The notes below the pieces were generated by a model. That model worked only from the letters and a program-made list of their open reading frames with translations. It did not search any database and was not told the origin of the DNA. A stretch of 29,296 bases of DNA from an uncultured archaeon (lineage in GTDB: Archaea > Asgardarchaeota > Lokiarchaeia > Sigyniarchaeales > SOKP01): positions 2,397 to 31,692 of the forward strand of contig CAYUTF010000031.1 in assembly GCA_964447495.1 (NCBI GenBank). Reading direction: 5' to 3'. The position numbers were made by a program, and so were the translations under genes. Positions within the stretch are counted from its first letter, which is position 1. Each line of letters begins with the position of its first letter. Below, piece by piece: positions 3,982-28,245 of the stretch.

Positions 3982-4202
3982 CTAATATTTTTAATTTCTA
4001 TCAATTTGCTTTATTAAACATAGATTATGGTTTCGAATTAATGGATTGAAGGTATTAAAAAGATACAAAAGCTTAAAGGTAAAGATCTGTTTAAACAAGA
4101 AGATAAAAGAGGTATGCGAAGTTAAGAAGAGGGTTAGTGTATTATTGCATTTATAAATTCAATGTTATTGGGATTTTTACAATATAACCAATAAACATCG
4201 AA

Positions 4203-4294
4203 GTTATGGTATTTGGTTGAATAGCAGATGGACTATGAACCAATATATCATTCATACAAAAATCCATCCATCTATTGCTTTTAACTACCATAAC
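4203..4294. promoter_or_regulatory. Long interrupted hairpin upstream of the MFS gene
   Basis: Nested complementary blocks: GTTATGGTA/TACCATAAC, GTTGAA/TTTAAC (one G-U), AGCA/TGCT, GATGGA/TCCATC, TATGAA/TTCATA. Confidence 0.45.
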
Positions 4295-4496
4295 ATTATC
4301 AACAAATATGTTTAATATAATTCTATATTACAGTTTAATTTATAAATCTAGTGTTTGTAATTGCCATGGAAATGAAATAGATGGGAAATAAATGGGAAAA
4401 CTATAACATTAATTTCAGTAGATCAAAAAATAGGAATGCAATAGAGATATTAAAATTACTAATTTTTCTATTAAAATTTAAACGGTATTGTGTTAA

Positions 4497-15900: not shown

Positions 15901-17271
15901 GTGAGGAAATTGGAAGAAAACGAAAAGCAATTAACGCCAGAAGAGATTGAGAAACAGAAGAAAATCGTTAATGAACTATATCAAAAAGAAAAAGCACATA
16001 GAGCAGAATATTTAAAAAAATATGAAGAGGATAGAAAGAAAGCATTTGAGGATAGCAAAAATTTAATCTCTGACCTAATTACTGAGAAGAGTTTTTTAAG
16101 AGAGAAACTGAGAGAGAAAGATTTGGAAAGAATGGCTATAAAACCTGAAATTGAAGAAACTAGCGCTGTAATTGAAAAATCTATTGAATATAAAGCATTC
16201 ATAAGAGAAAAACGACGTGAAGATGATTTACAAAGAATAGATTTAAAACCTGAGATTAGAAAAACAGGAGAAGTGATCAGTAAATCTATAGATGAGAAAG
16301 CATTTATGATAGATAAGAGGCGGGAGAGTGATATGCAAAGATTAAATGTGAAGCCCGATAGAGAACAAATAAGTGAAGCTATCAGTAAAACTATTGATGA
16401 TAAAGCCTTTCTAATTGAAAAAAAAAAAGAAAAAAAATCTCAACTTTTAGAAATCAAACCTGATATTAAAAAGACGGGGGAAGCTATTGAGAAATCCATC
16501 GGAGAAAAAGCTTTTATGCAAGAAAAGTTGAGAGAACGAGAGCAACATCGTATGAGCCTTCAATCTGATTTCATGTCCACGGGAGAGGCTATAAGTAAAA
16601 CTGTTGCAGAGAAAGCATTTAGAATTGATAAACAACGCGAAGCTGATCTTAAACGGAGTGGATTTAAACTTGATATTGAAAAAACAGGAGAGGCTATTGA
16701 AAAAAGCATCGGAGAAAAGGCATTTAGAATAGATAAACAACGTGAAATAGATCTTAAAAGGAGAGAGATCAACTTAGATTTAGAAAAAGCTGGAGAGGCT
16801 ATAGAAAAATCCATCGGAGAAAAAGCTTTTATGCAAGAAAAGTTGAGAGAACGAGAGCAACATCGTATGAGCCTTCAATCTGATTTCATGTCCACGGGAG
16901 AGGCTATAAGTAAAACTGTTGCAGAGAAAGCATTTAGAATAGATAAAAAGAGGGAAAGTGAAATCAAAAGAAGAGAATTAAAGCCTGATTTTCAAACAGC
17001 CGGAGAAGCAATTAAAAAATCGATAAGTGAAAAAGCATTTATGCAAGAGAAAAGAAAGGAATCAGAACTTTCAAAATTGAATATCAAACCTGATCTTGAA
17101 ACAGCCGGAGAAGCTATTGAAAAATCGATAAGTGAAAAAGCATTCATGCAAGAAAAATTGAAAGAAAGAGATTCTCATAGAATGGGCTTAAAGCCAGATA
17201 TCAGAGGCATCGGTGAAAAAATAGAAAAAGAGATAGAAAAACGTGAAGCTAAGAAAAATGACACTGATTGA
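15901..17271 (+). CDS. Highly charged 35-aa tandem-repeat protein
   Basis: 11 full repeats plus a partial twelfth, consensus about (K/T)(T/A)GEAI(E/S)KSI(G/S)EKAFx3KxRExxxxRxxhKPDhx. Confidence 0.88.
   Translation: MRKLEENEKQLTPEEIEKQKKIVNELYQKEKAHRAEYLKKYEEDRKKAFEDSKNLISDLITEKSFLREKLREKDLERMAIKPEIEETSAVIEKSIEYKAFIREKRREDDLQRIDLKPEIRKTGEVISKSIDEKAFMIDKRRESDMQRLNVKPDREQISEAISKTIDDKAFLIEKKKEKKSQLLEIKPDIKKTGEAIEKSIGEKAFMQEKLREREQHRMSLQSDFMSTGEAISKTVAEKAFRIDKQREADLKRSGFKLDIEKTGEAIEKSIGEKAFRIDKQREIDLKRREINLDLEKAGEAIEKSIGEKAFMQEKLREREQHRMSLQSDFMSTGEAISKTVAEKAFRIDKKRESEIKRRELKPDFQTAGEAIKKSISEKAFMQEKRKESELSKLNIKPDLETAGEAIEKSISEKAFMQEKLKERDSHRMGLKPDIRGIGEKIEKEIEKREAKKNDTD
16492..16940 (+). repeat. 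Perfect 134-bp direct repeat inside the repeat gene (16492-16625 and 16807-16940)
   Basis: Identical copies offset by 315 nt, equal to 3 x 35 codons. Confidence 0.92.
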
Positions 17272-17272
17272 A

Positions 17273-17776
17273 TTAAAAACGTATATCAAATCTATATAAA
17301 GTATTTAAATTAATGTTTTCTAATCTCTTTTTATACATTTTTATCTGAGGATCAATAATTCCGTTAAATTGGTTAATACTATTTTCAAACCGTTTATAAA
17401 AATCGTTTACAATTTCGTTCAGTATGCCACGTTCTATTTGAAGATTTGTTTTTTTTGTAATAGCTATGACTAATAACCTTTCTCTCCTAGCATATAGCAA
17501 TCTGGTTTCTTGAAAATTGATTTCTTGTATCTCATCATTTATTGATGGAGATTTGATTTCTTTAATAAATAAATTTAATGCATTTAAAAAACCGCTTATG
17601 AGATCCTCATTTGAAGAAAATTCAGAATTATCAGTATATTTTTTGCTTAATAAGAGTGCCCCCGTTAAATTGTCTAAAAAATATATTGCATGAAATCGGG
17701 ATTCATGGATATTGATTTTTTCAATTGGAAACCCAAACGTCTTATTAGAATTTTGATTATTTCTCCTGAACGACAT
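17273..17776 (-). CDS. Stand-alone longin-like domain protein
   Basis: beta-beta-alpha-beta-beta-beta-alpha pattern: HAIYFLD..TGALLLSKKY...DLISGFLNALNLFIKEI...IQEINFQETRLLY..LLVIAIT...ILNEIVNDFYKRF, typical of Asgard longin-fold proteins. Confidence 0.72.
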   Translation of the reverse strand: MSFRRNNQNSNKTFGFPIEKINIHESRFHAIYFLDNLTGALLLSKKYTDNSEFSSNEDLISGFLNALNLFIKEIKSPSINDEIQEINFQETRLLYARRERLLVIAITKKTNLQIERGILNEIVNDFYKRFENSINQFNGIIDPQIKMYKKRLENINLNTLYRFDIRF

Positions 17777-18058
17777 AATTTTGATTTAGGATATGTTTCT
17801 ATAATTTATTCTATTACTTTTTTACTCTCAATAAAGGATTATTTATTTTTTATTTAAAATGTAAATGTTATCTTTATGTTATTTAGAGTATACATCCTCC
17901 CAGTCCGATTGCATTCAGAAACTCTTTTACTTTTTGATAAATAAATAAGACTATTATTATATGAAAAGAAAATATAAAGAAAAATAAAAAAGATATAAAT
18001 AAATTAAAATTCTTATTAGAAATATTATCTTTTTACTTACTTGCAATATTTGATAGAT

Positions 18059-18526
18059 ATGATTGAAAAAAACAACGAGGAATCCCAAAAAAATAAAATA
18101 TCAAATGGGTTAATCATAACTAAAGAACATCTAAAGTCTACCATTTTTCCCGAGGAAGTTCAGAACGAAATTAATGATTCACCTTATTATTTATTGATTT
18201 TTATCTCGCGAGAAGATGTTATCAAAATTTTTTGCTTTCCTACAGAAAATAAAGTGATAAAAAAGATTCTTATAAAACTACAGGAATTTTCACCAGAAGT
18301 AGTAAAGGGAATTTCAGAAATTTTAAACAATCTTCAATTAAATAAAGATATTCTCCATACAACAGGAATTTGTTATGAATTAGAAAAATGCTTCTATGAA
18401 ACATATTTAATAGGAGAGGCTCTTCAACAAGGAAAAGTAAGCGTCTCCTTAATTACTGAGAAATTTATGTCACTTGCACGAGTAAATAATGTTACAATAG
18501 AAGATATCCCGATGATTAATGAATAG
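18059..18526 (+). CDS. Hypothetical protein, possible C-terminal ACT-like fold
   Basis: ORF track starts at TTG 18041; ATG 18059 preferred. Pattern KILIKL..SPEVVKGISEIL..ILHTTGIC..CFYETY. Confidence 0.65.
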   Translation: MIEKNNEESQKNKISNGLIITKEHLKSTIFPEEVQNEINDSPYYLLIFISREDVIKIFCFPTENKVIKKILIKLQEFSPEVVKGISEILNNLQLNKDILHTTGICYELEKCFYETYLIGEALQQGKVSVSLITEKFMSLARVNNVTIEDIPMINE

Positions 18527-18592
18527 CTTCAATTTTTTTAAAATTTTACCCTCGTATTTGAGGCTTTTAACTACATCTTAATACTGATTAAT

Positions 18593-18799
18593 ATGGATAA
18601 TAAAAATATTCCCCCACCACCAAGCCTTCCCCCTACATATGAAATCTCCAAAGATTTTTGTCTGTTTCATAAAGGTAAAATTCATGGAGAAATATATACA
18701 TGCCCTCGATGTAATGCGCAGTATTGTTTAAATTGTGCAATTAACGCCAAAAACGAGGGAAAATTCTGTGTTAAATGTAAACAACTGATAGACATCTAA
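18593..18799 (+). CDS. Small RING-like zinc-finger protein with Pro-rich N-terminus
   Basis: C-x2-H-x10-C-x2-C-x4-C-x2-C-x10-C-x2-C (8 ligands), preceded by PPPPSLPPTY. Confidence 0.75.
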   Translation: MDNKNIPPPPSLPPTYEISKDFCLFHKGKIHGEIYTCPRCNAQYCLNCAINAKNEGKFCVKCKQLIDI

Positions 18800-18817
18800 A
18801 TTTTTCATTAATGAGCT

Positions 18818-19207
18818 TTATACTTGTTCCTTTTTGATAGAACTTAAAGAACGCCACGCCTTCCAAAAAATTAACCATAGAATTATAAAAATAAACAGCG
18901 TCGTCACAAAGGTATAGCCACCAATAAATAGATCAATTATTACCATAAAAGGAATACCAGATAATGAGAAACCAGTGAGATATCCATATCCCCAATATCG
19001 ATTTTTCAAAGCAAGGATTATTCCAGGAATCATTGTTGTCAAGATAATTGAGAGATATGCTACCACTTCAATATAATAAGGTGCGTTGAAGATGATCAAC
19101 ATATTTCCCCAAGATGCGAAGAAACCAATAACTAGAAAAAGTATTGTCCCTATATCTACCTTTAATTCTGGTTCTTCTTTTCCTACTATATGATTTGAAG
19201 AAGTCAT
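18818..19207 (-). CDS. Hypothetical membrane protein (about 4 TM segments)
   Basis: Hydrophobic segments; ATG 19207 (MTSSNH) preferred over GTG 19318. Confidence 0.72.
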   Translation of the reverse strand: MTSSNHIVGKEEPELKVDIGTILFLVIGFFASWGNMLIIFNAPYYIEVVAYLSIILTTMIPGIILALKNRYWGYGYLTGFSLSGIPFMVIIDLFIGGYTFVTTLFIFIILWLIFWKAWRSLSSIKKEQV

Positions 19208-19423
19208 CCCTGTTATCTCAATTGTATATATTCTACTTTTTGTCTTTGTAAATGCTTCATATTTAATAAAAGAAATCTTCCTATCACCATTGGGTGAATG
19301 AATATTCTTTTCGAACACTATCTATAATGAAATTCTTCTCTTACAAAATTGACTAAGGATTCATTTTTAAGACAATTATTTTAAATAGGTCAAAACATAT
19401 ATAATTAATAAGATAGAAATTTA

Positions 19424-19456
19424 ACCACAAAATGAATGATCATTCAATATTGTGGT
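19424..19456. promoter_or_regulatory. Palindromic operator or 5' hairpin just downstream of a TATA-like box
   Basis: ACCACAA-AA-TGAATGATCATTCA-ATA-TTGTGGT, with a perfect 14-bp core at 19433-19446; TATATAA at 19398-19404 is preceded by an A-rich BRE-like stretch. Confidence 0.6.
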
Positions 19457-19536
19457 ACAAACAAAATATATCATCTAAATAAAAAAGAAATAAAACAACC
19501 AAATAAAATAGGGAAAATGACATCAAATTCTAATCA

Positions 19537-19657
19537 AGACTCCTGCTACCGCCCTGGATTTTTGTCTTTTGGTAGTGTGTCTTAACACACTCTGATTTCG
19601 CCCTCCTCCCCCTATTTTATTTCTGACCTTGTATTGAGGTCTTGGTGGCAGGAGTCT
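19537..19657 (+). ncRNA. Putative structured RNA element of unknown family
   Basis: 14-bp closing stem AGACTCCTGCTACC/GGTGGCAGGAGTCT; hairpins AGTGTGT-CTTA-ACACACT and GACCTT-GTATT-GAGGTC; C-rich unpaired loop. The non-Watson-Crick positions are G-U on the + strand. GC-rich island in AT-rich intergenic DNA. Confidence 0.6.
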
Positions 19658-19914
19658 CCCTTTCAAAACCCTTATCCTCTTATAGAAGTTTATAGATTCT
19701 GCTACTGTTTCGTTTAAGAAAAAAATTTTATGTCCTCAAAACTTCTTAATGATCTAATCAATAGATTTACCTGATAATGCCAGAATCAATTTAAATAAAG
19801 GTTAAATTAGAGAATAATACCTATCGAATTTAAGCAAATAAAATTAAGTAGAGAATTATAAATTTAAGATAAATAATCATTAATTATTATAAAAAAAAGT
19901 AATTTAAGGAAAAA

Positions 19915-20865
19915 ATGATGAAAACTTCAACATTTACTTTTAAAGATCAAGATGGTATTGAAATTTTTGTATATAAATGGGAACCAGATACATCTCCGAA
20001 AGCTATTGTGCAATTTGTACATGGATTAGCAGAACATGCAAAAAGATATGAAGGTATCGCAGAGGCTTTATGTAAAGAAGGATTTCTTTGTTATGCACAA
20101 GATGCCCGCGGCCATGGTTTAACTGCTGGTGATTTAACCGAAGCAACTTTAGAGGGGCATGCAGGAGTTTTAGGACCCAATGGATGGAACGGTGTAGTTA
20201 ATGATATTCATGAATTATCTAACTTAATCAAGAAGGAATATCCTACTCTTCCTCTATTTATGATAGGTCATTCTTGGGGCGCAATGTTATTACAAGATTA
20301 TATTCAAGAATGGGGAAATGAAATAAAGGGATGCATTCTTAGTGGAACTAATGGTAAAGTAAGAGCTCTAGTGCTAAAAGCGGGTAAAGTAATAATTAAA
20401 GGAGAAATCAAAAAGCTAGGACCTACCGCTCCAAGTGTGAAGATGCATGAGATGAATTTCGCTTCACATAATCACGATTGGCAGAATGATGAAGGAGCCA
20501 CAGGGTTCGAATGGCTCAGTAGAGATAAATCTGAAGTACAAAAGTATGTAGATGATCCATGGTGTGGATTTATCAGTCCAGCTCCTCTATGGCTAGAATT
20601 TATAAAGGGGATGGAAAAAATTTATGAAAAGAAAAATGAGGAGAAAGTGCCCAAAGAACTACCAATCTATTTCATTGCGGGAACATTAGACCCCGTTGGG
20701 AATAAAACAAAAGGCGTCTCTGCAATGATTAATCGATTTGAAAAATACGGAATAAAAGATATATCATATAAATTCTATGAAAATGCTCATCATGAAATTT
20801 TTAACGAAATTAACCGCGATGAAGTTTTTAGAGATGTGATAAGCTGGTTAAACTCTCATTTATAA
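19915..20865 (+). CDS. Lysophospholipase / monoacylglycerol lipase-like alpha/beta hydrolase
   Basis: HGLAEH, DARGHG, GHSWG, WLSRD..V..Y..DP.CGF, AHHEIFNE. Confidence 0.9.
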   Translation: MMKTSTFTFKDQDGIEIFVYKWEPDTSPKAIVQFVHGLAEHAKRYEGIAEALCKEGFLCYAQDARGHGLTAGDLTEATLEGHAGVLGPNGWNGVVNDIHELSNLIKKEYPTLPLFMIGHSWGAMLLQDYIQEWGNEIKGCILSGTNGKVRALVLKAGKVIIKGEIKKLGPTAPSVKMHEMNFASHNHDWQNDEGATGFEWLSRDKSEVQKYVDDPWCGFISPAPLWLEFIKGMEKIYEKKNEEKVPKELPIYFIAGTLDPVGNKTKGVSAMINRFEKYGIKDISYKFYENAHHEIFNEINRDEVFRDVISWLNSHL

Positions 20866-27036: not shown

Positions 27037-28245
27037 TCAAATAACAGTATCAACAATGTTTTGTTGTATTATTTGTGGCATCAGTCCGAATGTCTCTATC
27101 TCATCAACCGAAATGGCATTTGGGAATGCCTTTTTCATGATATTATATGCCCCATTTACATCAGCATTAACTAAAACACCTTTGGATGTTTTAAACAATC
27201 CTCTAGAAATTCTTTTTCCTCCATATTTTTCATGCTTTTTAATTGGTTCATTATCCAAGAAAGAGCATTTAGAAGTGTGATTTTCATTGACTATTAAGAC
27301 ATGAATTCCTTCTAATTGAGCTTTATATTCGATTTGTTTTACTAATTTCAAGAAAGGGATTTGTACAAATTTCTGATTATTTCTTTTTCCTATATTGATC
27401 TTTTACTTCCACACATGATTATATCCTATTACTATTGTTTCAATGTTGTGCAAAGTGCAATATTCAATTACATTCTTTAAAATTCGATGAAATAAGGTAG
27501 TAAGTTTATTGTTTCGAGTTAAATGAAGTTTTTGAATTCGTCTTGTATCAGTAAAATTGCCTTTCTTGTTTTCGATATTCCTATAGTATGCTAATTGTTT
27601 GTTATAATATTGATTTATAGAATTTATCATCCCACCTTTAATAATAAACGGTTTACATCCGTTATTATTTATCGCATTTATGAGATTATTTAAATCTAAA
27701 TCCATGCTTAACATATGACTTTTATCTAATCCTAGATCCTTCTCTTTTTTTTCATACACAAGATCAATTTTATACTTTACTCCTAAAGGGATTATCCTTA
27801 CTTCTTTTAATCTTTCATTAATTCTTGTTTTAATGGGATTAATATGTACTCTTTTCGGAAAGTGTAAATATCCTTGTTCTCTCTTACATTGCTGATTAGT
27901 GAAACTTACTACAGATTCCCCGTTTTTCTTTTTATATTTAGGTATTTTAGGCTTTTTCTTAAATTTCCTAAAATTACGACTATACTCCTTAATACTTTTA
28001 AAATATGATTTCCAATTTTGAGTTACACATTTGAGAATTTGTTGTGATGTTTGAGAAGGAAGGTTCTGGTAAACTTGTTTGGTTTTAAGAATGAAATCTA
28101 AATCATAATAGGTCAAAAAATTATTGAGATTAAAGAAATCCTGTCTGATATACCAATTAGCTAAATTATACAAATTTTTAGCTAAATGACATAACTCTGA
28201 TAATTTCAATGAATATTCTACTTGCATAACTTCAGTTAATCTCAT
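27037..28245 (-). pseudogene. tnpB: TnpB RNA-guided nuclease interrupted by an in-frame TAA at 27403-27405
   Basis: ORFs 27403-28245 and 27037-27351 are in the same frame: ...IVIGYNHVWK*KINIGKRNNQKFVQIPFLKLVKQIEYKA..NENHTSKCS..NADVNGAYNI; N-terminal AKNLYNLANW. Confidence 0.9.

What the first reader, a model, noticed from the sequence alone, without database searches (positions are those of the whole stretch)
19501..19710. Unannotated structured RNA with a uORF and mutually exclusive pairings (candidate switch/attenuator or novel sRNA)
Seen: (a) a 121-nt GC-rich core, 19537-19657, closed by a 14-bp stem and containing two clean hairpins (19574-19591, 19625-19641), with wobbles that work as G-U on the + strand; (b) the 3' arm (19644-19657) can instead pair with a degenerate downstream copy of the 5' arm, AGATTCTGCTACT (19694-19706), followed by GTTTCGTTT; (c) the 5' arm can instead pair locally with GGTAGTG (19571-19577); (d) a 22-codon ORF, 19517-19585 (MTSNSNQDSCYRPGFLSFGSVS), runs through the 5' arm. 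Inference: a ribosome on the uORF would free the 3' arm to form the downstream hairpin, which is attenuator-like logic. I know of no such element in Asgard archaea. The downstream lipase gene has its own TATA-like box (19887-19894), so an independent sRNA is equally possible. I could not match it to 5S, tRNA, C/D, H/ACA or SECIS patterns.
Basis: partly seen in the sequence, partly recalled or inferred. Interest (0 to 1): 0.78.

Follow-up and report, generated by a model that had tools for sequence, protein, structure and literature searches.

The report
Conserved structured RNA element in Asgard archaea
The GC-rich folded stretch is a real, unannotated non-coding element, probably a small RNA gene, that recurs in many Asgard (Promethearchaeota) genomes, but it does not look like a switch for the neighbouring lipase gene.

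Summary
The 121-nt core (19537-19657), with its 14-bp closing stem and two hairpins, is there. It is the most stable 130-nt fold in the window and sits in a GC island within a ~20% GC spacer. No Rfam family and no tRNA match it.

I translated the minus-strand frame that spans the core and searched protein databases. This found 33 short ORF clusters from Asgard genomes and unnamed metagenome records. They share only the core, and 21 of the 33 read it in shifting frames. So the conservation is in the DNA or RNA, not in a peptide.

The "unpaired" tracts are nearly invariant, and the stems stay pairable with a few compensated changes. A further 13-nt segment (19501-19513) is exactly complementary to 19610-19622 and recurs in relatives.

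The attenuator reading is not supported:
- The downstream alternative hairpin is no better than chance.
- Conservation stops at about 19664.
- The ORF's start codon lies in a variable spacer.
- None of 43 lipase orthologue loci carries the element.

The best reading is a new, low-copy family of structured non-coding RNA genes. The transcribed strand and the function are unresolved, because I could not fetch the homologues' DNA.

The parts
19501..19513 (.). Outer conserved segment (+ AAAUAAAAUAGGG, - CCCUAUUUUAUUU). It is exactly complementary to 19610-19622 and is a candidate pseudoknot or alternative helix.
   Evidence: There are only two exact copies in the window, here and at 19610-19622 on the other strand. 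A 13-nt exact complementary run is reached in 4 of 2000 flank shuffles. The duplex is -13.4 kcal/mol. A compatible motif sits 14-16 residues after the KRQ anchor in 8 of the 16 homologue ORFs that reach that far.
19514..19536 (.). Variable spacer. By my reading it is about 10 nt longer here than in relatives.
   Evidence: Homologue read-throughs differ in sequence and length between the arm and the outer segment. Only 19532-19536 is conserved.
19537..19550 (.). P1, arm nearer the low coordinate.
   Evidence: In relatives the arm is read in three different frames (12/9/3 of 24).
19551..19573 (.). Nearly invariant single-stranded tract. On + it is U-rich (GGAUUUUUGUCUUUUGG); on - it is A-rich.
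   Evidence: At each position from 19553 to 19578 the window's base is allowed in 30-33 of 32-33 homologues. The same bases are read in all three frames (KRQKS / YQKTKIQ / KDKNP).
19574..19591 (.). P2 hairpin, a (GU)n/(CA)n stem with a variable loop.
   Evidence: Pair probabilities are 0.85-1.0. 42 of 54 informative cells are forced Watson-Crick (2 of them changed on both sides) and 10 are broken. The loop positions 19581-19585 are the most variable.
19592..19624 (.). Nearly invariant tract. On + it is C-rich (CGCCCUCCUCCCCC) followed by UAUUUUAUUU; on - it is G-rich (GGGGGAGGAGGGCG). It includes the partner (19610-19622) of the outer segment.
   Evidence: From 19595 to 19613 the window's base is allowed in 24 of 26 up to 31 of 31 homologues.
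19625..19641 (.). P3 hairpin. Five pairs are kept in the closest subgroup. The sixth pair (U.G on +) is specific to this copy.
   Evidence: The pair 19630/19636 is broken in 20 of 29 homologues, and the loop is variable.
19644..19657 (.). P1, arm nearer the high coordinate.
   Evidence: It is read in two frames in relatives (17/10 of 27).
19658..19664 (.). Short conserved flank (+ CCCUUUC, - GAAAGGG). Conservation ends here.
   Evidence: At 19658-19663 the window's base is allowed in 18-23 of 22-25 homologues. At 19665-19669 it is allowed in only 5-8 of 11-14.

Best explanation
The element is one copy of a previously undescribed, low-copy family of structured non-coding elements in Promethearchaeota (Asgard archaea). 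It is most likely a small RNA gene with its own transcription unit, of about 130-165 nt (19501-19664).

Shown:
- A 14-bp helix (P1) closes a domain with two hairpins (P2, P3) and two long, almost invariant unpaired tracts.
- A third conserved 13-nt segment outside P1 is complementary to part of the inner tract.
- The conservation is at nucleotide level. It is independent of the neighbouring genes and of any reading frame.

Inferred:
- The RNA acts in trans, with P1 giving stability and the invariant single-stranded tracts forming the working surface for a protein or for base-pairing. On the + strand these are a U-rich AUUUUUG-type tract and a CCUCC-containing C-rich tract. On the - strand they are an A-rich tract and a GGAGG-containing G-rich tract.
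- The helix 19501-19513/19610-19622 either forms a pseudoknot with P1 or competes with it.

The strand is unresolved. My estimate is about 0.55 minus and 0.45 plus.
For: Structure:
- z -6.56 on + and -4.51 on -.
- Rank 1 of 3890 sliding folds.
- GC island in the spacer.

Family:
- A phmmer search with the 47-aa minus-frame translation against 1.84 billion representative proteins gave 11 hits at E<=1e-3. I kept 10 and dropped P0010, a 1267-aa repeat protein.
- A profile search gave 33 clusters at E<=0.01 among the 8000 candidates scored, each with 1-5 member sequences on 1-3 contigs.
- 7 of the 33 carry a source name, and all 7 are Asgard labels: Lokiarchaeota, Promethearchaeota, Hodarchaeota and Hermodarchaeota.
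- Two hits share the locus-tag prefix ACFFB0, which I read as two divergent copies in one assembly.

Non-coding:
- The ORFs share only the core. Their starts, ends and flanks differ.
- 21 of 33 change frame inside the element.

Pairing kept:
- P1: 44 of 64 informative cells are forced Watson-Crick, 6 of them changed on both sides. 9 (14%) are broken, against 23-54% when the partner is slid by 1-3 nt.
- In each of 5 in-frame divergent homologues, 0 of 14 P1 pairs are broken in the true register, against 2-4 at shifts of +/-1 and +/-2.
- Forced double changes: A-T to T-A at the terminal pair (P0006), and C-G to T-A at 19540/19654 (P0011, P0024).

Not tied to the lipase:
- 0 of 43 orthologue loci hold the element by blastn, nhmmer or a covariance model.

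Standing alone:
- Homologue ORFs run on into 70-100 codons of sequence with no similarity across the family on either side of the element. This is my reading of P0004 and P0014.
Against: - I could not fetch any homologue DNA. The pairing test therefore rests on back-translated codons, where about a third of positions are free. 169 of the 233 covered P1 cells are only 'can pair'.
- The outer ~10 bp of P1 are conserved in sequence rather than covarying. A DNA-level repeat bound by a protein would look the same.
- There is no transcription evidence for either strand.
- Strand evidence conflicts:
  - This copy has two G.U pairs on +.
  - P0006 has two forced G.U pairs on -.
  - The raw count of wobble-only cells is 18 for + and 3 for -, but most come from uncertain alignments.
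  - Base composition leans minus: 52 of the 67 unpaired bases on + (78%) are pyrimidines.
  - T-runs lean minus: T4, T4, T4 and T6 within 56 nt downstream on -, against a single T4 at +69 on +.
- P3 is poorly supported outside the closest subgroup, with 30 of 61 informative cells broken.
- Homologues were found through called ORFs, so copy number and the in-frame conservation of the core are biased by how they were ascertained.
Confidence: 0.6

Rival explanations
1. It is a cis-acting leader, either a riboswitch or an attenuator. The folded domain would sense a ligand or a ribosome and control the gene downstream: the alpha/beta-hydrolase 19915-20865 if read on +, or the membrane protein 18818-19318 if read on -.
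For: - The architecture resembles an aptamer: a closing helix, a multi-stem junction and invariant junction bases.
- There are two long helices that cross or exclude each other. On the - strand the MFE of 19495-19668 uses the 19501-13/19610-22 helix instead of P1 (-47.2 kcal/mol). On + the MFE keeps P1 (-48.1).
- A gene lies 219-258 nt downstream on either strand.
Against: - 0 of 43 lipase-orthologue loci carry it.
- The uORF's start codon is in a variable spacer, and frames shift in 21 of 33 relatives.
- The lipase has its own TATA-like box about 25 nt before its ATG.
- A 14-bp, largely sequence-conserved P1 is much stronger than the P1 of known riboswitches (general knowledge).
- No Rfam riboswitch family matches.
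Confidence: 0.15
2. It is a DNA-level element: two interleaved inverted repeats bound by a protein, such as a recombination, replication or regulatory site. In that case the RNA folds would be incidental.
For: - The arms are conserved in sequence, and there are mismatches on both strands.
- It always lies in long AT-rich non-coding DNA; here the spacer is 596 bp at 15-26% GC.
- It occurs at one or a few copies per genome.
Against: - The most conserved parts are the 23-33-nt tracts between the repeats, not the repeats themselves.
- P2 is a tight hairpin with a 4-8-nt variable loop and compensated changes.
- No Orc1/Cdc6, integrase or recombinase gene was found among the 26 window ORFs scanned against Pfam.
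Confidence: 0.08
3. It is a miniature inverted-repeat mobile element, or a relic of one.
For: - It has a 14-bp terminal inverted repeat, is about 121 bp long and lies in an intergenic spacer.
- There are at least two copies in one assembly, by my reading of the shared locus-tag prefix.
- A TnpB-like ORF lies 8 kb away.
Against: - There is no direct repeat flanking the arms (left ...AATCA, right CCCTTT...).
- Conserved, asymmetric sequence continues outside both arms.
- There is no second copy in the window, nor in 43 loci from related genomes (665,106 bases in all).
- The two copies in one assembly are divergent subtypes, not near-identical.
- P0004, P0005 and P0020 share flanks over about 100 codons, which I read as stable vertical inheritance.
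- There is no match in the phage or plasmid collections.
Confidence: 0.07
4. It is a small protein gene: the 47-codon minus-strand ORF, or the + strand 22/49-codon ORF.
For: - ORFs across the element were called in 33 database clusters.
- The block GGGGRN..TTKRQKSR stays in one frame in 30 of 33.
Against: - The same conserved bases are read in two or three frames at both ends.
- Starts and stops are not conserved.
- There is no Pfam match.
- The in-frame block is what the search selects for.
- A search with the + frame translation found nothing.
Confidence: 0.03

Closest known systems
GC-rich, stem-closed small RNA genes found as GC islands in AT-rich archaeal genomes (the Hgc RNAs of Methanocaldococcus; Klein, Misulovin & Eddy 2002, recalled, not read here)
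   Same: It is a GC island in a very AT-rich spacer. It has a highly stable fold with a long terminal helix and stands apart from the neighbouring genes.
   Different: It has no sequence or structure match to any Rfam family. It has no C/D or H/ACA boxes. It has an extra long-range complementary segment outside the terminal helix.
Y RNAs (Ro60-bound RNAs of animals and bacteria)
   Same: The size is about 100-130 nt. A terminal helix is formed by the two ends. On the + strand there is a large pyrimidine-rich internal region. There are several paralogues per genome. A Ro60 gene has been reported in Asgard viruses (passages of 10.1101/2021.07.29.454249).
   Different: No Rfam Y-RNA family appears among the matches listed at E<=10. 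P1 has no bulged helix. No TROVE-domain gene was found among the 26 window ORFs scanned.
Trans-acting sRNAs with C-rich seed loops that pair with ribosome-binding sites (RsaE/RoxS in Firmicutes; sRNA41 of Methanosarcina mazei; recalled, not read here)
   Same: If the + strand is the RNA, it has an invariant unpaired CCUCC-containing C-rich tract and a U-rich tract, held in a stable scaffold.
   Different: There is no homology to these RNAs. The strand is unknown and no targets have been identified. Few genes in the window show a strong GGAGG-type site upstream (my reading).
   Same: There is a short ORF overlapping one arm of a helix, and alternative pairings are possible.
   Different: The ORF, its start codon and the proposed alternative hairpin are not conserved or not above chance. 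The element is not linked to the gene. Archaeal termination is not known to need a hairpin (general knowledge).

Membership tests
Any Rfam 15 family (including 5S rRNA, tRNA, C/D, H/ACA, SRP, RNase P, riboswitches, ribozymes, Y RNA) | A covariance-model score at or above the family's gathering threshold | tested here: not met
   There were 0 matches in the whole window at gathering thresholds. At E<=10 the best scores on 19350-19900 and 19525-19670 were 9-16 bits, against thresholds of 38-75.
tRNA / tmRNA | Cloverleaf recognised by ARAGORN | tested here: not met
   0 genes in the window.
Leader-peptide attenuator | A conserved leader ORF with a start codon inside the conserved unit | tested here: not met
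   The ATG at 19517 is in the variable spacer. 21 of 33 relatives shift frame inside the element. The stop lies in the most variable loop.
Leader-peptide attenuator | Alternative terminator and antiterminator hairpins that are more stable than chance and conserved | tested here: not met
   The 19644-19706 hairpin has z -0.04, with 86 of 200 shuffles as stable. Conservation ends at about 19664.
Leader-peptide attenuator / riboswitch | Constant linkage to the regulated gene family | tested here: not met
   For the lipase: 0 of 43 orthologue loci carry it. Linkage to other gene families could not be tested without the homologues' DNA.
MITE | Terminal inverted repeats | tested here: met
   The arms are 14 bp with one mismatch.
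MITE | Target-site duplication flanking the repeats | tested here: not met
   The flanks are ...TCTAATCA and CCCTTTCA..., with no direct repeat.
MITE | Many dispersed, near-identical copies | tested here: not met
   There is one copy in 665,106 bases of the window plus related loci. Database clusters have 1-5 member sequences on 1-3 contigs. No whole genome could be scanned.
C/D box sRNA | Box C (RUGAUGA) near the 5' end and box D (CUGA) near the 3' end, forming a K-turn | tested here: not met
   The element has only an internal CUGA (19591-19594) and no box C. The one snoRNA hit lies elsewhere (19744-19813), at 15.4 bits against a threshold of 39. The box motifs are recalled.
H/ACA sRNA | ACA triplet just 3' of the basal helix, a pseudouridylation pocket, and a K-turn or K-loop | tested here: not met
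   There is no ACA after P1 on either strand and no Rfam match. The motif is recalled.
Y RNA | Conserved Ro-binding helix with a bulged base in the terminal stem, and a Ro60 gene in the genome | tested here: inconclusive
   P1 has no bulge. No Rfam Y-RNA family is among the listed matches. No TROVE domain was found in the 26 window ORFs. The rest of the genome was not seen.
Sm-class RNA | Single-stranded RAU(4-6)GR site flanked by stem-loops and bound by an Sm/LSm ring | tested here: inconclusive
   On the + strand GGAUUUUUGUC (19556-19566) is invariant and lies between P1 and P2. Its last base is U rather than a purine. The consensus is recalled. Binding cannot be tested here.
Small protein gene | One conserved reading frame with conserved start and stop | tested here: not met

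The most novel reading that the evidence does not exclude
The element is the RNA subunit of an Asgard-wide small ribonucleoprotein of eukaryote-like type. It would be an Sm/LSm- or Ro-type RNA whose invariant U-rich (AUUUUUG) and pyrimidine-rich tracts are protein-binding sites. Its paralogues would differ in P3 and the junctions. This would be a prokaryotic forerunner of the snRNA or Y-RNA classes.
Probability: 0.07. Interest if true: 0.9.

Novelty: new variant of a known kind. Interest (0 to 1): 0.62.

Why it matters
Little is described about non-coding RNAs of Asgard archaea beyond rRNA, tRNA and guide RNAs. My seven literature searches found no description of this element.

A sequence-conserved, low-copy, structured element was found across database records whose named members all carry Asgard labels. 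It has invariant single-stranded tracts and a possible pseudoknot. That makes it a concrete, testable candidate for a new RNA or RNP in the archaeal lineage closest to eukaryotes.

It is also a practical warning. Gene callers have annotated at least 33 spurious "hypothetical proteins" across it.

Tried and rejected
- Rfam at gathering and at E<=10: nothing credible.
- ARAGORN: no genes.
- Search for a second copy of the arm in the window: none.
- blastn, nhmmer and a single-sequence covariance model (R1) against the window plus 43 loci: only the self hit (172 bits). The other hits were 10-12 bits at E 2.5-7.5.
- Synteny: none of the 16 other window genes tested lies beside the lipase in any of the 43 loci; only weak Ras-family and ABC-transporter paralogue matches appear in 5 loci. 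Orthologous spacers could therefore not be compared.
- Phage and plasmid collections, blastn: no match.
- Search for a decayed second copy of the core in the flanks by transition-tolerant local alignment: not above shuffles. That scoring also under-rated the exact 13-nt complement, which I re-tested.
- Sigma-70 promoter and hairpin-terminator scan: 3 promoter-like sites against 4.1 expected, and 0 terminators. The scan is not informative for an archaeon.
- Upstream regions of 23 window genes: too AT-rich to derive a promoter model.
- Protein search with the + frame translation of 19586-19714: no candidate.
- The listing of cluster members for 10 hits: not available, so accessions, contigs and copy numbers per genome stayed unseen.
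- Strand assignment from G.U against A.C cells: inconclusive.
- Pfam on the two overlapping small ORFs and on the neighbours 17273-17776, 18041-18526 and 18818-19318: no family. By my reading of its sequence, the last of these is hydrophobic and membrane-like.
- Literature: seven searches gave no paper describing such an element. I saw the listings only. I read passages of one preprint.
The homologues' DNA, their neighbouring genes and per-genome copy number therefore stayed unchecked.

Full report
**What is in the sequence.** The window is AT-rich. Its genes include UvrC, sugar kinases, ABC transporters, radical-SAM enzymes and a Ras-family GTPase, which fits an Asgard archaeon. The finding lies in a 596-bp spacer between two divergent genes: 18818-19318 (-), a hydrophobic protein with no family, and 19915-20865 (+), a Hydrolase_4 alpha/beta-hydrolase.

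The core 19537-19657 folds as described.
- + strand: -44.9 kcal/mol, z -6.56, 0 of 200 shuffles as stable.
- - strand: -37.8 kcal/mol, z -4.51, 0 of 200 shuffles as stable.
- The 14 closing pairs have probabilities of 0.73-1.0.
- The interior alone is only moderately structured (z -2.75 on +, -2.29 on -).
- Among 3890 sliding 130-nt windows on both strands, the element ranks first by raw energy and after regression on GC.
- It is a GC island (0.46) in DNA of 0.16-0.26 GC.
- An inverted-repeat scan of 665,106 bases (the window plus 43 related loci) found six repeats of >=12 bp with arm GC >=0.45 and spacing 40-160. This is the only one of >=14 bp in archaeal DNA.

**What is not above chance.**
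At -13.7 kcal/mol its z is -0.04, and 86 of 200 shuffles do as well.
- The "degenerate arm copy" scores below the shuffle mean in a local alignment.
- The 22-codon ORF is the tail of a 49-codon ORF.

**Known families.** Rfam gives nothing at gathering thresholds for the whole window. It gives only noise at E<=10 on two sub-ranges. ARAGORN finds no tRNA. There is no second copy of the arm in the window and no match in the phage or plasmid collections.

**Relatives.** I spent the one genome scan on the lipase, because that directly tests the attenuator idea. It returned 43 loci, 40 of them from Asgard or unclassified archaeal MAGs, with 45-82% protein identity.
- None of the 16 other window genes tested lies beside the lipase in any of those loci.
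- blastn, nhmmer and a covariance model built from the element find the element nowhere in them.
- So the element is not a conserved companion of this gene. It is also not a high-copy repeat in those genomes.

The breakthrough came from a trick. The minus strand has a 47-codon ORF that spans the whole core. I translated it and searched 1.84 billion representative proteins.
- That search gave 11 hits at E<=1e-3. Ten are short "proteins" of 43-148 aa that share only the core at 58-86% identity. I dropped the eleventh (P0010), a 1267-aa repeat protein.
- A profile of 13 sequences then gave 33 clusters at E<=0.01 among the 8000 candidates scored. Each has 1-5 member sequences on 1-3 contigs.
- The 7 clusters that carry a source name are all labelled Lokiarchaeota, Promethearchaeota, Hodarchaeota or Hermodarchaeota. 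The other 26 are unnamed records.
- Two hits carry the same locus-tag prefix (ACFFB0). I read this as two divergent copies in one assembly.

**It is not coding.** I mapped each hit onto the window's minus strand with a frameshift-aware alignment.
- 21 of 33 change frame at least once inside the element.
- The high-coordinate arm is read in two frames (17/10).
- The low-coordinate arm is read in three frames (12/9/3).
- The U/A-rich tract appears as KRQKS, YQKTKIQ or KDKNP.
- Starts, stops and flanks are unrelated.

This is nucleotide-level conservation. The database ORFs are spurious calls. Its ATG lies in a spacer that varies in length and sequence, and its stop lies in the most variable loop.

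**Conservation map.**
- Positions 19553-19578 are nearly invariant: the window's base is allowed in 30-33 of 32-33 homologues.
- Positions 19595-19613 are nearly invariant: allowed in 24 of 26 up to 31 of 31.
- These are the tracts that the fold leaves unpaired, together with the P2 stem.
- The loops of P2 and P3 are the most variable places.
- Conservation stops near 19664. At 19665-19669 the window's base is allowed in only 5-8 of 11-14 homologues.

**Pairing test.** The test uses only what the amino acids force.

| Helix | Informative cells | Forced Watson-Crick | Broken |
|---|---|---|---|
| P1 | 64 | 44 (6 changed on both sides) | 9 (14%) |
| P2 | 54 | 42 | 10 |
| P3 | 61 | 23 | 30 |

- For P1, 23-54% of cells are broken when the partner is slid by 1-3 nt.
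- In each of five in-frame divergent homologues, 0 of 14 P1 pairs are broken in the true register.
- The test is weak where third codon positions are free. The outer 10 bp of P1 are conserved rather than covarying.

**A new feature.** 19501-19513 is the exact reverse complement of 19610-22.
- The 13-mer occurs exactly only at these two places in the window.
- Such a run is reached in 4 of 2000 flank shuffles.
- Of the 16 homologue ORFs that read far enough, 8 have residues compatible with the same motif at a fixed distance (14-16 residues after the KRQ anchor), beyond a variable spacer. All 8 are from the subgroup closest to the window.
- The other 8 lack it. Seven of them are from divergent subgroups whose inner tract also differs.
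- With P1 this helix makes a pseudoknot topology. Alternatively it competes with P1. On the - strand the MFE of 19495-19668 uses it instead of P1 (-47.2 kcal/mol), while on + P1 wins (-48.1).

**Strand.** This is unresolved.
- This copy has two G.U pairs on +.
- P0006 has two forced G.U pairs on -.
- P0007 has a forced C.A on - in P1, which reads as G.U on +.
- The bulk wobble count (18 for + against 3 for -) rests mostly on doubtful alignments.
- Composition favours -. On +, 52 of the 67 unpaired bases are pyrimidines. Known structured RNAs tend to have A-rich unpaired regions and G>=C (general knowledge).
- T-runs also favour -: T4 at +20, +29 and +42 and T6 at +51 downstream on -, against one T4 at +69 on +.
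- Some relatives would have a T-run right after P1 on + (KK codons before the arm; my reading).

**Conclusion.** The switch mechanism proposed is not supported. I place it as a new family of small structured non-coding RNA genes of Asgard archaea, with function unknown. A trans-acting or protein-bound role through the invariant tracts is the most likely reading. A cis-regulator, a DNA-level site and a mobile relic are the rivals. Nucleotide alignments of the homologous loci and stranded transcript mapping would settle the open points.

Noticed in passing
window 4156-4345 (-), in the spacer 3982-4496: A long AT-rich imperfect hairpin is the second strongest GC-corrected fold in the window (-34.2 kcal/mol at 25% GC, residual z -4.26). 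It lies between an MFS transporter gene and a phosphoglucomutase gene.
   Followed up: partly
window 15901-17271 (+), repeats at 16159-17156: The gene contains about 7-9 tandem 105-nt (35-residue) repeats at 61-78% identity. Pfam gives only weak, below-threshold or low-complexity matches.
   Followed up: no
window 27403-28245 (-): A 280-aa ORF carries an OrfB_IS605 (TnpB-like) domain match (E 4.4e-14) covering only residues 174-276. It may be a truncated transposon-associated nuclease. Its guide-RNA region was not examined.
   Followed up: no
window 19915-20865 and loci L001-L043: The Hydrolase_4 lipase-like gene has 64-82% identical orthologues in 38 of the 43 loci fetched. None of the 16 other window genes tested lies beside it in any of the 43 loci. 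L011 carries two tandem copies. L024, L040 and L041 are labelled as bacterial (Nanopelagicaceae, Clostridiales, Clostridiaceae).
   Followed up: partly
public protein databases (P0001-P0034): At least 33 clusters of annotated 'hypothetical proteins' of 33-148 aa in Asgard and unnamed metagenome records are spurious ORF calls across this non-coding element.
   Followed up: yes
window 17273-19318: Three consecutive small ORFs (167, 161 and 166 aa) on alternating strands have no Pfam family and are separated by long AT-rich spacers. I did not examine whether this is a variable or foreign region.
   Followed up: no
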